From NCBI GenBank assembly GCA_965235115.1, contig OZ249448.1, forward strand, positions 7,626,001-7,690,000: DNA of 64,000 nucleotides, in the 5' to 3' direction. This stretch comes from Laetmonice hystrix. Its lineage: Eukaryota. Below are positions 1 to 33,000 of this stretch, one piece after another; positions within the stretch are counted from its first letter, which is position 1, and the number at the start of each line of letters is the position of its first letter. Made by a program: the position numbers.

Positions 1-3000
1 GCCACAATCCCCGGCCTTCACACAAACCGCCACGAATTTCTATGAGCCATGCGCACTGTTCATTAAACACTATTTCTCGGGGCTGAAAAACATAGAGCCC
101 CAACATGCCCGGCGGGTCGGAGGGGATGAACCTGGGTGACTTATCAGAGCACTGCACACTACCCTCCCTCCCACACCACCCCGGGCCACGGACAGCACTG
201 AGAGAGCAACCTCTGTGGTCGGCAAACTGGGCCGCCGGGAGGCGAAAATCTACTTACGCTTTGCCGTGACAGCGGAGAGTCAAATTTGGAGATTTTGTTC
301 AACTGGAAATAGACAAGACATGATTGTAGCGAACGGTGGGTGCTCGGGGCACGACGGGAGGTTGTCCTAAGTCAGGCTGGGACAGTCCCCGTGTAAACCC
401 CCTCCCCTTCCACCTCACCTACACAACGGGCCCTCCCCACATCTAATGTCACAACACATAAAAAAAACCGGCACCAATTTCATGGTGCATTATTGCATCG
501 TTCCAAGCGTTGTTTGCATTAGGTGCAGCGCGCAATGAAATAAATGATCCAATAAGAACTCCATCTACGTAAACGAAGGCACCTCTTTGATCTTCCCATC
601 CCTATTCTTCACCAAGTCTGCCGATAAAAAAACCCCACAAATACAATCTTAGAGGCTGAGAAAAACCGACCAGAATGATTGGGATATTGGATAACGTGAA
701 GCCAGTCGGCAATATATTTATTTATGTCCCCTCCAATAGTGTATTCTACCATGAGGTCAATGCGTACACAATTTTGTAAATTGGGTAAAAGCCACACGAC
801 ACACATTATTACGAAGGGAGGGTTCAAATTTTACATATACAAAAGAAGCACTAAACCATATCAACATTGCGGGGGGGGGGGGGGGGGAGGGGGGTTCTCG
901 AACCCCTATGATGACCGACATATAGATGACCTACATCCTAAATCCCATACCCCCTTCCGTCACTCGCCCGCTCTGTTTGCAGTCACATGCCGGCAACATT
1001 ATTATTACTTTGACTGAAATAAATGTGCCCACACAAGTATAGTTGGGTGTTGACATGCCATGTTAAAACAAACATATTAGATAGACAGATCTCCTAGGGC
1101 TATGGATGCAGGTATTGCGTTATTTCTATCGGAAATGCGGTCACTAATGTAGGGTGAGCCAATCACAGGCAAGGTTACAAGGCGTTACGGTAAACCAATT
1201 ATCGACCTACCTTTGCTTGCCGATCTCGTTCAGCGAGTTCTGCCAGATTGTGAGGCTGACCGAGGAAGCCAGGTTTCTACAAATACAATTCACACATCAT
1301 CAACATCTGACGGTGACCTATAAAAACATGCCGACATCATAAAATTACTGATCCTGGATGACCTATATAATGCATCCCCTTTTCCCTGGCTTCATAAAAA
1401 ATGTAGTTCTTGTCGATGGAAATTCATCAAAGGTTTTTCAAAACATTTAAAAAAGCCACAACGACATCAAGATTTCAGTCAGAATAGAATCCCACCTCAT
1501 GAAGAATTTCGTTTTCTTTCATTTCCTTTCCTTTCAAAGAGGTAATTTTCAGATCTCTTCCAAAACTCGCGCACCGTTTTACATGTTATACTGGGAGTGT
1601 GCGTGGCTGGGTTAGCGTGCGGGGAGTTGGCTGGTAAAATGCGGGTCCCTGAGGCCCGGACTAACTGTGTTGGGCCTTTGTCAGTACATGGCGATGTAAC
1701 AAAAGAGGCCCAGTGAATCGTTCAATGTTTCATGAGAATGCTGACACGGGTGAAAGCCTATTTGTACAGTACAGTATTGGTTATGGCAGTCTGCCACTCC
1801 TCCATGATATCACCAACTCGTCCTAATGGATGTGCCGACTAGTTCATCCCTCCACAAAGGTTATAGATTTTTCAGGCTGTCAACATTAACAACCCCTAAT
1901 TGAACGGTACGTTTGAAGATAAATAAAGTATAAATACATCAGATGGTGGAGTTTCCAGCAGGAGTTTAGCACTTGGGTTGGGGGTCCATGGTTGGTTTTA
2001 GATGAGTACAGGTAACATTGAGGTGTAAATATTTCCATCACACAGTATGATAAACGTCCCAACCTTTGTGGTACCAAACTCTTACACATGAACACACGCT
2101 TACATTTCATGATACATGTAATTTATCGACGGGATCTCCCCACTAAAAAACCAACCAGACTGTTTGCGTTCAACAAAATGTACATGTGGTTTTGTGGACA
2201 GGACTTTCTCTCGTCACAGTCGTTGGCCTACAACTGGTCAGTTGTGATATGTTATACACACAGCTGCTGTGGCTCAATACCTTACAAATGTCACCGAATC
2301 CTCCTGTCCTATTCATAAAGTGGAAACGCTCCCAGACTATGTCCCAGTGGTAGTACTGGTAGTGGCCTGGTACTACTTACAAAATGGGGCTTTGTAGCAG
2401 GCAACTCAGTAAGTGCACAACCCCGCGGACTACAGGTCTTCTCAACAGGTGGCTAAAGTCGGGCATGAGAATAAAAAACTAGATCACTTACCATGTGTGG
2501 GTTTGGTGAGTGGTTGAGGCTGCCACCTAGTGGCGAGTAGGCACCGTAATGCTGATGCATGTGTTGATGTTGGTGCATATGTTGGTGTTGATGCTGGTGC
2601 ATCTCAGCGCGCAGGTAGGGAGGCGGGCCGATTGCCGCGGCCATTTGTCTGTCCTGAGAGGCCAGGAACCGGGTATTCAACTCCTGTCGTATGAGATCCT
2701 GACCTGCAACACCTAAAACGGTAAACCAAAGGTCAGCAAGTACAAATCAACCCAGCAACAATAGACAAATCAACCCAGCAATAATAGATTATATTATGGC
2801 TGGCTTCCGGCCGGGTTATCTTACAACGGAACCATGAGGGCCTTTCACAATTCGATATTAAAGAATATCTGCAATACAAGAATTAGTATGACTAGGTTTT
2901 AATTGATGAACTATATCGGTATCTGAAGACGGTCCATCACTATCTTTTAATGGCGCTATCATTCGTGTGACCTTTCGGTGACCTTATACAGATGAGGGGA

Positions 3001-30000: not shown

Positions 30001-33000
30001 GCCTTGTACGGATTCCGTGACCTACATACGGTGACCTCCAACCTTATTCTCAACCATAACTGGTCTATTCCGCTTTTTCAGCCATCAATATTTATTCGAA
30101 GAGCTGCATGACCATTAGTAATCTGTCATCATAAATCTTATCCTCACTGATTAAAACATTAATATTTCATCTTAGCGTCTCTGGCACTTCAAGATGGTGG
30201 ACTAAAAACATGCATATTTAATACAATATACCACTGACGTTTCCAGCCAAGTATTTAGTTGTGGCAAGTTACTCTGATATTAACCTCACCTGGCCTGGGT
30301 CATTCTCGTCAGTGAGTGAACGTGTAATCTTGGCATCTTATTATCTGTCTAAGTGTAAACTAGAGAGAACGATTTATGACCATCTATATTTATACAGCTA
30401 CCGGAGTGAGAGTTTCCCTGTTTCGAAGTCTGTCCTCTCTATCCTCCATTTATTTCTGTTTTTACTGGTGGGAACGACAGATAATATTAAATGACCTTCT
30501 TTCATGTCCAATGTACCTGTAATTTTGTGGAGGGATATGGCTAGACTTTCTGTGTACTGAGCTGCAGCGATTTTTGTTAAGTGTGTCACTGTATGTAATA
30601 TTTTTGTATAAAACGGTCATGCTTTCTGCCACCAGAGGCGCTGACATTGTACTTCCGTCGTGCTGTATTGGGCTTCATTCGATGAAAGAATTTCCCTGGC
30701 CTAACACTACAACATTCAGTCATGTTCTTCGACGGTTCTAAAGGGCACTGTTTCAAAGTCAGTCTACTTCTTTACTGAAGAGTCTATTTCCATTTTCTGG
30801 TTGAAATTTGAAATTTACAAATAGTCCTCTGGCTTCGTCCGCCTTTTTAGTCAGTGAGTCGTGATTATTTTTAGGTAGAGAACAGGAATTTCTGGGTAAA
30901 TGTTCTGACTTTTACATTTGTATTTCTGTGGTTAGAATAATTGCCGCCTCATCACATTGTACGATTTGGTAGGGGTATGTTTACATAATGAATACCGGGT
31001 ACGTTCCCATGAATAGTTTGAGGAAAACCATTTTTGTAAGAAAAAAAAACCCTCTTTATTTATGATGCTTTTAGAATGGACATAAATTCATTCATAAATC
31101 AATAAACCTTCATAAACATGCAAATGCGTTAAATAGGTCAGTGGCTATGGCTTTAATGGCCCTTAATGATGCAACGTTTTCATCCTTCGGTATCAAACCT
31201 ATTCATTCGTTATTTTTATTTTACTTGTACAGAAAGTTCAATTACCGGACAAATTGCCACACTCCTTTTTTGATACTAGTTTAGCCCCAACTAATGTACA
31301 TGTGTTGCTATGCTTTATGTTGCTGAACATGAAAATATGTCTAGATAATGAAAGTACACCATCTCTAATATTCGCTAACATCAAGATCCCTATTATCGCC
31401 CTTGTCTTTGTCACTTATCTAAATTACTAGCTGTACTTCCTTCCTGCACTTATTTCAACAACACCTATTTGAAAACATGCTAGGCCTCTCTATCGTTAAC
31501 ACTTAATTTTCACATATATTATCAAGTATCTCCCAAAGCAATTTACATAGTTCACAACCGACATATGCTAGGCAATTGCGCAATTCATGATGAAAAAGGA
31601 ATCCCCTTTACTCAGCGTTCAACCATCCCCGATGTAAAGTACATGGGCTGGTTTTAGAACATTCAAACAAATCCCCTTATGCAATGCCACGTACCCATTA
31701 ATATTAGGCCAAGTGTGGGTAACTAGTGGCGCAGATCGATAATTCTCAATGGCAACTCGCACCATTCCGGATCTATTGTCCCTCTCATCCGACACGGTAA
31801 TCGACCCGTAGTGAGGATGATGTAAGACCTGCTAGTTGTACTACACCCGACCTAATTGACCTTTCTATGTATTAAATCTCTCACCGTCGGAAACCATGCC
31901 AAACCCTCTCCTGGCTAAATGAGCCAAGCTCTTTACACCTCTATAGACCGTATGCTCTTGACTTTGGGAACACCAGATGACTGGCTCAAGTATTGACTGG
32001 CCGGTGACTCGCATGGCGCAATTAATGGGGATTTGATACTTTAGTGACCAACTCAACATCACGATCAATATACATGCAACATCTCTAACCAGTTCTCTCC
32101 CTCACAAAGTTACCCAGCTAACGTCATTACCAGTAATAGGATCTAGCGTGTTACTAAATCTACTATTGATTCACAAGTAAAGAGGTTTTCTCACAGGACG
32201 TACGTCGGTGTAAGAACTGTAGTAAATATACTACAACACATTATAACTAAAACGTTTAGGATCAAGCATCTTAAAGTGTTCATGTATCAACGTTAGATTC
32301 GATCTGAAGGAGGCTCTAACAATTTCCTTTTTTTGTTGTATCATCTGAAAGCTAAGATCAAAGAGATACTTACTTTTAATGTGATGCGTGGAGAAGAAGC
32401 CTTCCGAGCCAACATCAGAAGCCTGCAACAGAAAAATACGATCAAATGAAATTACACTAAATAAACAAGCTTACTTAAACATCCCGAGGATTTAACACAT
32501 TAATCACGCCGCACCACTATGAACTGAAACAAAAAGCTGTTGGTATACTTCGAGGAAAACCTTTGATATAAATTCAGACATAACTTTTATCCTCGACACG
32601 GGAGCACCATAAACAAATGCTGCATGATATCAGTTGGGACATGTACAGCAAACTTCCATAGGCCATCTATAAAATACCACCTGTTGGATCTACATACATG
32701 TACTGGTATTTATATGATTGTAACTCTGTCATTGCTCACCCTACCAATGACTTACGTCATGACCTACCATGCTACCTTCCACATCTTTATGAGACATTGT
32801 GCACCAAGCTCTGTTAGACAAGCATCTTTAAACAACTCGGTTTTCACGATCCCTCTCCCCCATTATAGCCGTCAGCCTTGACCGCTAGCCGTACAATGAA
32901 ACCGTTCCATGTACAGTGTACAGAGGACCACCCTGAACCAGTTCGACTGCCGACAGACAGCCAGAAGACCACAGTTTGAGGCAGGGTCGCGTGCCCTCAC

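What the first reader, a model, noticed from the sequence alone, without database searches (positions are those of the whole stretch)
258..32422. Invertebrate AUTS2-family gene with vertebrate-like exon architecture
Seen: five minus-strand exons with GT-AG sites and phases 0/1, 1/2, 2/1, 1/0, 0/0 form an uninterrupted 431-codon frame; two are too small for the ORF track to define. Known: AUTS2 carries [12 protein letters not shown], a PPPY motif and an HX repeat linked to P300 recruitment in non-canonical PRC1. Inference: exon order, phases and the 45-nt exon appear retained across bilaterians.
Basis: partly seen in the sequence, partly recalled or inferred. Interest (0 to 1): 0.65.

Follow-up and report, generated by a model that had tools for sequence, protein, structure and literature searches.

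The report
Partial AUTS2-type gene, five exons
The window carries the middle part of an animal gene of the AUTS2 family, a regulator of gene activity known from human brain development, split into exons much as in vertebrates; this is an ordinary, expected gene rather than a new kind of thing.

Summary
Five minus-strand exons (32422-32374, 25349-24698, 17422-17088, 2703-2492, 302-258) have AG/GT borders and phases 0/1, 1/2, 2/1, 1/0, 0/0. They add up to 1293 nt, or 431 stop-free codons. Their splice sites rank high among all AG/GT in the window, and 4 of the 16 minus-strand GTAAGT hexamers are their donors.

The fourth exon encodes [16 protein letters not shown] and a 17-residue H-X repeat. 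The literature describes PPPY next to an HQ repeat for AUTS2 and its single-copy invertebrate orthologues, but not for FBRS, FBRSL1 or Tay. A run of four exons linked by split codons and bounded by phase 0 matches the published human exon bloc 6-9.

No sequence search could confirm the family.

The two small exons rest mainly on splice signals, and a second 45-nt candidate exists. "Retained across bilaterians" overreaches. Invertebrate AUTS2 orthologues are already published, so interest is low.

The parts
32374..32422 (-). E1: 49-nt coding exon, phase 0/1, peptide ASDVGSEGFFSTHHIK plus 1 base. Probable counterpart of human exon 6 (end of conserved Region 3).
   Evidence: Acceptor ttgcag ranks in the top 0.11% and donor GTAAGT in the top 0.24%. 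It has the best combined splice score among the phase-out-1 candidates upstream of E2. The family assignment of the peptide rests on recall only.
24698..25349 (-). E2: 652-nt exon, phase 1/2, 216 whole codons. Ser/Thr/Pro/Ala-rich low-complexity linker (S55, T28, P26). Probable counterpart of human exon 7 (PR1 / Ser-rich region).
   Evidence: Acceptor ranks in the top 0.02% and the donor is GTTAGT, top 2%. Of the minus-strand ORFs listed over this stretch, only the one in the model frame (24670..25371) spans the whole exon.
17088..17422 (-). E3: 335-nt exon, phase 2/1, 111 whole codons. Pro/His/Ser-rich (P26, S16, H14). Probable counterpart of human exon 8 (Region 4).
   Evidence: Donor GTAAGT ranks in the top 0.13% and the acceptor in the top 3.4%.
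2492..2703 (-). E4: 212-nt exon, phase 1/0, 70 whole codons. Probable counterpart of human exon 9 (Regions 5 and 6). An alternative acceptor at 2712 adds 9 nt in the same phase.
   Evidence: Donor GTAAGT ranks in the top 0.11%.
2654..2689 (-). The motif [12 protein letters not shown], inside a predicted helix.
   Evidence: Translation. A single-sequence AlphaFold2 model places E4 residues 2-24 in a helix, with block-mean pLDDT of 93 and 87.
2615..2626 (-). PPPY (PY / WW-domain-binding motif).
   Evidence: Translation.
2549..2599 (-). H-X repeat of 17 residues: 9 His alternating with 6 Gln and 2 Met.
   Evidence: Translation. The human repeat is described as HQ x6 / HT x3, aa 525-542.
258..302 (-). 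E5: 45-nt exon, phase 0/0, peptide LNKISKFDSPLSRQS. Probable counterpart of human exon 10 (start of Region 7).
   Evidence: Acceptor ranks in the top 0.34% and donor GTAAGT, in a poor exon-side context, in the top 6%. It is one of two 45-nt candidates.

Best explanation
The window holds the central part of a single protein-coding gene on the minus strand. The gene is an orthologue of the AUTS2 family of the AUTS2 / ancestral-progenitor (aAUTS2p) type, from an animal whose base composition is not vertebrate-like.

The five exons correspond to human AUTS2 exons 6-10. They encode:
- the end of the N-terminal conserved region;
- a long disordered Ser/Thr/Pro linker;
- a Pro/His-rich segment;
- the first ~85 residues of the central effector region, which contains a helix-forming [12 protein letters not shown] motif, a PPPY motif and an H-X repeat.

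The 5' exons (the PCGF3/5-docking N-terminus) lie upstream, unrecognised or beyond coordinate 64000. The 3' exons (the Pfam Auts2 domain) lie beyond coordinate 1.

Inferred mode of action, by analogy with the human proteins and not shown here: the protein is an adaptor of non-canonical PRC1.3/1.5. Its N-terminus docks on the PCGF RAWUL domain. The central region encoded by E4-E5 recruits a co-regulator (P300/CBP in human AUTS2) and so sets the transcriptional output. The PPPY motif offers a WW-domain contact.

The split-codon linkage of E1-E4 makes skipping any one of them frame-breaking. E5 is symmetric and can be skipped in frame.
For: Shown by the sequence:
- Exon borders, phases and an open 431-codon frame.
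- Splice-site ranks, and 4 of the 16 minus-strand GTAAGT used as model donors.
- Motifs at 2689-2654, 2626-2615 and 2599-2549.
- Low-complexity composition of E2 and E3.
- A helix prediction for the first 24 residues of E4.

From papers:
- PPPY plus an HQ repeat make up Region 6. PPPY occurs only in AUTS2 and in 18 of 21 aAUTS2p. Regions 3, 4, 5-6 and 7 map to human exons 3-6, 8, 9 and 10-11. This order matches E1, E3, E4 and E5.
- Human exons 6-9 form a bloc joined by split codons.
- The HX repeat is needed for P300 binding.
- The N-terminal part docks on PCGF3 and the central region carries the effector function.
- Mouse exon 10 is alternatively spliced.

Non-vertebrate composition: CpG o/e is 0.61 overall and 0.66-1.29 in the exons.
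Against: - No sequence comparison with any AUTS2-family protein was possible, so homology rests on motifs and on published descriptions.
- Pfam gave 0 hits to Auts2 or Atrophin-1 on 5 of 5 exon or ORF peptides at E<=10. PDB gave only 4 chance-level hits at E 0.09-1.5. The ESM Atlas gave only His/Gln-rich look-alikes at 0.81 or below.
- E1 and E5 are too short to test and depend on splice signals. A rival 45-nt exon exists at 1255-1211.
- No upstream exons were recognised in 31.6 kb.
- There is no expression evidence.
- The HX repeat also occurs in ATN1, RERE and FBRSL1, which have different partners.
Confidence: 0.85

Rival explanations
1. It is the same gene, but the real mRNA differs from the five-exon model in at least one detail. 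Possibilities are acceptor 2712 instead of 2703, exon 1255-1211 used instead of or as well as 302-258, a different exon upstream of E2, or an extra cassette exon in an intron.
For: - Tandem acceptors lie 9 nt apart in the same phase, and 2712 scores slightly higher (3.8 against 3.0).
- Two 45-nt phase-0/0 candidates have combined scores of 7.1 and 7.5.
- There is one symmetric-phase candidate in each of three introns, at modest scores.
- Vertebrate auts2 genes use tandem acceptors and an alternative donor at exon 9.
Against: - E1 has by far the best splice scores among the phase-compatible upstream candidates.
- The peptide of 1255-1211 shows no family-like feature that I can name.
- The E3-E4 intron has 0 symmetric candidates.
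Confidence: 0.35
2. The source is a vertebrate, for example a jawless one, or the gene is a vertebrate paralogue. It would then not be an invertebrate single-copy orthologue.
For: - Window GC of about 0.48 and abundant minisatellites do not exclude such genomes.
- E4 appears, by my recall of the human protein, very close to it.
Against: - CpG o/e is 0.61 overall and at least 1 in E2 and E3, and 47 of 216 E2 codons are NCG. By my general knowledge this is unlike jawed-vertebrate coding sequence.
- PPPY argues against FBRS and FBRSL1.
Confidence: 0.08
3. It is an atrophin/RERE-type gene, or another unrelated His/Gln-rich transcription regulator that merely shares an HX repeat.
For: - HX repeats occur in ATN1 and RERE.
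- Many invertebrate aAUTS2p entries were mis-annotated as atrophin-like.
- The ESM Atlas neighbours are His/Gln-rich transcription-factor fragments.
Against: - No Pfam Atrophin-1 match on any exon peptide at E<=10.
- PPPY directly precedes the repeat, as in Region 6.
- The exon bloc pattern matches AUTS2 and FBRSL1.
Confidence: 0.03
4. It is not an expressed gene. It would be a decayed copy, or a chance alignment of low-complexity open frames with splice-like signals.
For: - E2 lies in a stretch open in several frames on both strands.
- The window is full of repeat-generated ORFs.
- There are no expression data.
Against: - Five of five borders are strong.
- All four junctions are phase-compatible.
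- There are no stops in 431 codons.
- Conserved motifs are intact.
Confidence: 0.03

Closest known systems
Human/mouse AUTS2, exons 6-10 (exon bloc ExB1 plus exon 10)
   Same: - The order is the same: short conserved piece, long low-complexity linker, Pro/His-rich piece, then PPPY plus HX repeat, then a short exon.
- Four exons are joined by split codons and bounded by phase 0.
- PPPY and an alternating His repeat with six HQ units are present.
- The exon after the bloc can be skipped in frame, and mouse exon 10 is alternatively spliced.
   Different: - The introns are 2.2-14.4 kb here. In human, introns between exons 1-7 are 16-301 kb and those between exons 7-19 are ~1-3 kb.
- The non-Q positions of the repeat are Met x2 here and Thr x3 in human.
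- The linker exon is Ser/Thr-rich rather than mainly Pro-rich.
- The exact human phases and exon lengths were not available to me.
aAUTS2p, the single-copy ancestral-type AUTS2 of amphioxus, molluscs, hymenopterans and others (Sellers et al. 2020)
   Same: It is expected to be the same kind of gene. These proteins carry collinear conserved regions and mostly retain PPxY (18 of 21).
   Different: No aAUTS2p sequence or gene model could be fetched, so identity to any named species' gene is untested. That paper does not mention intron phases: the word 'phase' occurs 0 times in it.
Drosophila Tay bridge
   Same: It is a divergent orthologue of the same ancestral gene.
   Different: Tay lacks PPPY, and its Regions 5-7 lie in one exon. 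Here those regions are split between E4 and E5.
FBRSL1 / FBRS
   Same: They belong to the same family. FBRSL1 shares the exon bloc 6-9 and a near-perfect HX repeat.
   Different: They lack PPPY. The central region of FBRSL1 recruits CoREST/CTBP/LSD1 and represses transcription.
ATN1 / RERE HX repeat
   Same: They carry an alternating His-X repeat whose mutation causes neurodevelopmental disease.
   Different: No Atrophin-1 profile match was found here, and the surrounding motifs are different.

Membership tests
AUTS2 family (AUTS2, FBRSL1, FBRS, aAUTS2p, Tay) | Pfam Auts2 domain PF15336 (~200 aa, human exons 14-19) | not testable with these tools
   The domain would be encoded 3' of the last exon, beyond coordinate 1 of the window. 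As expected, 0 of the 5 exon or ORF peptides hit it.
AUTS2 family (AUTS2, FBRSL1, FBRS, aAUTS2p, Tay) | Conserved Region 6: an HQ/HX repeat in the central region | tested here: met
   A 17-residue alternating His-X repeat lies at 2599-2549. It is described.
AUTS2 family (AUTS2, FBRSL1, FBRS, aAUTS2p, Tay) | Conserved Region 5 motif upstream of Region 6 in the same exon | tested here: inconclusive
[12 protein letters not shown] is present 9 residues before PPPY in the same exon. No paper text holds the string, and no reference sequence was available.
AUTS2 family (AUTS2, FBRSL1, FBRS, aAUTS2p, Tay) | Exon bloc: four consecutive exons joined by split codons (human AUTS2 and FBRSL1 exons 6-9) | tested here: met
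   Phases 0/1, 1/2, 2/1 and 1/0 against the description in PMC9008325, section 5. The exact human phases were not available.
AUTS2 family (AUTS2, FBRSL1, FBRS, aAUTS2p, Tay) | Significant sequence similarity (best hits) to family members | not tested
PDB and the ESM Atlas hold no relative.
AUTS2 proper / aAUTS2p (as opposed to FBRS, FBRSL1, Tay) | PPPY/PPxY motif at the N-terminal edge of Region 6 | tested here: met
   PPPY lies at 2626-2615, five residues before the HX repeat. Its distribution across the family is given.
Atrophin-1 family (ATN1/RERE, Pfam PF03154) | Match to the Atrophin-1 profile | tested here: not met
   No Atrophin-1 match on E2, E3, E4 or the ORFs around E1 and E5 at E<=10. 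Short, biased queries weaken this test. A 2026 preprint labels the homologous human AUTS2 region 'Atrophin-1 domain'.

The most novel reading that the evidence does not exclude
The pre-duplication, single-copy AUTS2-type protein already carried the complete central effector module, made up of a helix motif, PPPY and an HX repeat, encoded by the same frame-locked bloc of exons as in vertebrates. It acted as a dual-output PRC1.3/1.5 adaptor. After the vertebrate genome duplications, its P300-type (activating) and CoREST-type (repressing) contacts were partitioned between AUTS2 and FBRSL1. The split-codon bloc would then be an old constraint that keeps the module intact, and the in-frame 45-nt exon an equally old switch point.
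Probability: 0.12. Interest if true: 0.5.

Novelty: new member of a known kind. Interest (0 to 1): 0.2.

Why it matters
This is mainly an annotation result. It places a known developmental regulator in the window and shows that the long ORFs elsewhere in the window are minisatellite artefacts.

Its modest wider value is that an animal with a single AUTS2-type gene could show whether the ancestral protein activates or represses transcription. A 2026 preprint sharpened that question by reporting that near-identical central regions of AUTS2 and FBRSL1 have opposite outputs.

Conservation of intron phases for this gene is not stated in the papers I searched. Such conservation is, however, the general expectation for slowly evolving animal genomes.

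Tried and rejected
- Pfam on the exon peptides: nothing relevant, only chance-level SelP_N and DUF5118.
- Pfam on 10 other long, non-repeat ORFs of the window: 0 of 10 with a family, so no second gene or transposon was recognised.
- PDB sequence search with E4: 4 chance-level hits.
- ESM Atlas with E4: the best score was 0.81, to His/Gln-rich arthropod transcription-factor fragments. This is below the level that counts as a lead.
- Rfam and tRNA scans: 0 hits.
- Literature search for the motif strings: 0 relevant papers.
- Search for upstream exons by acidic/serine-rich peptides, basic-rich peptides and splice-site enumeration: nothing convincing.
  - An acidic/serine-rich CDDSDS peptide at 38597-38475 has no in-phase donor and no pyrimidine tract.
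  - A 26-nt candidate at 52125-52100 has very strong splice sites but an unfamiliar peptide.
- I considered an alternative 21-nt donor for E4, as in vertebrate exon 9. I found none in frame when reading the sequence.
- The bacterial/archaeal genome collection was not scanned, because it cannot hold this gene.
- The joined 431-codon peptide was not built, searched or folded.
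Full report
**The window.** It is 64,000 bases with no N, GC about 0.48 and CpG observed/expected 0.61. I did not take it for human sequence.

| Exon | Coordinates | Length | Phase | Notes |
|---|---|---|---|---|
| E1 | 32422-32374 | 49 nt | 0/1 | ASDVGSEGFFSTHHIK plus one base |
| E2 | 25349-24698 | 652 nt | 1/2 | |
| E3 | 17422-17088 | 335 nt | 2/1 | |
| E4 | 2703-2492 | 212 nt | 1/0 | |
| E5 | 302-258 | 45 nt | 0/0 | LNKISKFDSPLSRQS |

- Every exon is preceded by AG and followed by GT.
- The lengths sum to 1293 nt, or 431 codons. No exon body holds a stop, and the three split codons read R, S and S.
- The joined peptide was not built, searched or folded.

**Is it more than chance?** I scored sites with a simple consensus matrix whose weights I recalled, so the scores are only a heuristic.
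- The five acceptors rank in the top 0.02-3.4% of the 4454 AG sites on the minus strand. The five donors rank in the top 0.11-6% of the 4575 GT sites.
- Four donors are GTAAGT. The minus strand has only 16 GTAAGT in 64 kb, so 4 of 16 sit exactly at the ends of the model's exons.
- The three large exons were found independently through open frames, and they fit each other in phase (2 into 2, 1 into 1).
- E2 needs this support. It lies in a GC-rich, low-complexity stretch open in several frames on both strands. Of the minus-strand ORFs listed over that stretch, only the one in the model frame (24670..25371) spans the whole exon.

**Weak points of the model.**
- E4 has a second acceptor at 2712, 9 nt upstream and in the same phase, with a slightly better score. 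The product could therefore have 434 codons.
- Downstream of E4, my thresholds left two candidates, both 45 nt and both phase 0/0: 302-258 and 1255-1211. Their combined splice scores are 7.1 and 7.5. Splice signals alone do not choose between them, and both could be used.
- Upstream of E2, E1 has the best scores of the phase-compatible candidates outside the 35.5-35.8 kb minisatellite.
- The introns hold few symmetric-phase candidates: 1, 1, 0 and 1.

**What the exons encode**.
- E2 is a Ser/Thr/Pro/Val/Ala-rich linker of 216 whole codons (S55, T28, P26).
- E3 is Pro/Ser/His-rich.
- E4 holds [12 protein letters not shown] (2689-2654), then PPPY (2626-2615). Five residues further on there is a 17-residue repeat of His alternating with six Gln and two Met (2599-2549).
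- A single-sequence AlphaFold2 model of E4 puts residues 2-24, which include the first motif, in a helix. Block-mean pLDDT is 93 and 87, and the rest is of low confidence. This suggests a short binding helix in an otherwise disordered region, which is an inference.

**Family assignment.** No tool gave me a reference sequence.
- Pfam found neither Auts2 nor Atrophin-1 in any of the five exon or ORF peptides at E<=10. This is expected for Auts2, whose domain maps to human exons 14-19 and would lie beyond coordinate 1.
- PDB holds no relative, and the ESM Atlas gave only His/Gln-rich look-alikes at 0.81 or below.

The assignment therefore rests on published descriptions.
- Sellers et al. 2020 (PMC7732068; abstract, Results parts 1-2 and passages read) define eleven collinear conserved regions.
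  - Region 6 holds PPPY and the HQ repeat.
  - PPPY is in all AUTS2 orthologues and in 18 of 21 single-copy invertebrate proteins (aAUTS2p). It is absent from FBRS, FBRSL1 and Tay.
  - Regions 3, 4, 5-6 and 7 map to human exons 3-6, 8, 9 and 10-11.
- The window's order is a short exon, a linker, a Pro/His exon, the motif-PPPY-HX exon, then a short exon. This fits human exons 6 to 10.
The strings occur in no searched paper text.

**Exon architecture.**
- The review PMC9008325 (section 5 read) states that human AUTS2 exons 6-9 form a bloc joined by codons split across the junctions, and that FBRSL1 has the same bloc. The window shows exactly such a bloc of four exons bounded by phase 0.
- E5 follows the bloc and can be skipped in frame. 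A preprint mentions documented alternative splicing of mouse exon 10 (passage).
- Zebrafish auts2a uses tandem acceptors at exons 3, 8 and 15 and an alternative donor at exon 9 (passages). The window has tandem acceptors at E4, a different exon, and I saw no in-frame alternative donor for E4.
- I could not obtain the exact human phases or exon lengths, because the review's exon table is a supplement and supplements were closed. The '45-nt exon retained' claim is therefore untested.
- In Drosophila Tay, Regions 5-7 lie in one exon, so the pattern does not hold across all bilaterians.

**Invertebrate or not.** Exon CpG o/e is 0.66-1.29, introns are 0.42-0.71, and 47 of the 216 E2 codons are NCG. 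By my general knowledge this is unlike jawed vertebrates. It does not name the animal, and I did not try to.

**How it most likely works (inferred from the human proteins).**
- AUTS2 is a subunit of non-canonical PRC1.3/1.5.
- Its HX repeat (aa 525-542, HQ x6 and HT x3) is needed for P300 binding and for activation (abstract and passages of the 2021 preprint).
- A 2026 preprint (passages) reports three further points.
  - The N-terminal part of FBRSL1 docks on the PCGF3 RAWUL domain, and AUTS2 competes for that domain.
  - The central region carries the effector function.
  - The core of that region (AUTS2 492-614, FBRSL1 407-532) is 71.4% identical, with a near-perfect HX repeat, yet activates in AUTS2 and represses through CoREST/CTBP/LSD1 in FBRSL1.
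- E4 and E5 encode the first part of this core. The HX repeat alone therefore does not tell which partner the single-copy protein binds.
- HX repeats also occur in ATN1 and RERE. No Atrophin-1 profile match was found here, and PPPY and the exon bloc speak for AUTS2.

**Surroundings.**
- No upstream exons were recognised in 32.4-64 kb.
- None of 10 other long ORFs has a Pfam family.
- There are no Rfam or tRNA hits.
- The introns and the upstream region hold many minisatellites, which create the longest ORFs of the window.

**Novelty.**
- Invertebrate AUTS2 orthologues and their collinear regions are published.
- I found no paper that pairs AUTS2 with intron phases: searches, and 0 occurrences of 'phase' in Sellers et al..
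- This is a small increment of an expected kind. I rate it a new member of a known kind, with low interest.

**What stayed unchecked.**
- Any sequence search against AUTS2-family proteins, exon by exon or joined.
- Expression and splice junctions.
- The Auts2 domain beyond the window.
- Human exon lengths and phases.
- The supplements of both main papers.

Noticed in passing
window 25780-27711, 18244-19655, 45012-46201, 38768-39585, 43755-44346, 3035-3637, 62706-63293, 56279-56740 and others: There are at least 18 separate minisatellite arrays, given as 22 TRF rows. Periods are 15-117 nt with up to 34 copies and 80-100% matches. They lie in the introns and upstream of the gene, and they generate the longest ORFs of the window in several frames on both strands, for example 427 aa at 25753-27036 (+).
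   Followed up: partly
window 2703-2712 (-): Tandem acceptors 9 nt apart, both phase 1, lie at the start of E4. Using one or the other would add or remove three residues. A 23-nt direct duplication sits just upstream at 2742-2787.
   Followed up: partly
window 1211-1255 (-): This is a second 45-nt, phase-0/0 candidate exon (PHNLAELAERDRQAK) in the E4-E5 intron. Its donor is good (GTAGGT) and its acceptor marginal. It could be a chance match or an alternative or extra cassette exon.
   Followed up: partly
window 52100-52125 (-): A 26-nt open segment is flanked by the strongest acceptor/donor pair found upstream (scores 6.6 and 6.8) in a C-rich stretch. The peptide is not recognisable, and the segment is phase 1/0 or 0/2.
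   Followed up: no
window 38475-38597 (-): A short open frame begins RICDDSDSTDIS. This is an acidic/serine peptide of the kind expected for the exon before E1. It has no pyrimidine tract and no donor in phase 0, so it is probably chance. It lies next to a minisatellite.
   Followed up: partly
window exons versus introns: CpG observed/expected is 1.29 in E2 and 1.08 in E3, against 0.42-0.71 in the four introns. Coding CpG is not depleted, although the surrounding DNA is moderately depleted.
   Followed up: no
window 17633-18316 (-): A 227-aa open frame lies directly upstream of E3 and partly overlaps the 56-nt minisatellite. It has no Pfam family, and its nature is unknown.
   Followed up: partly
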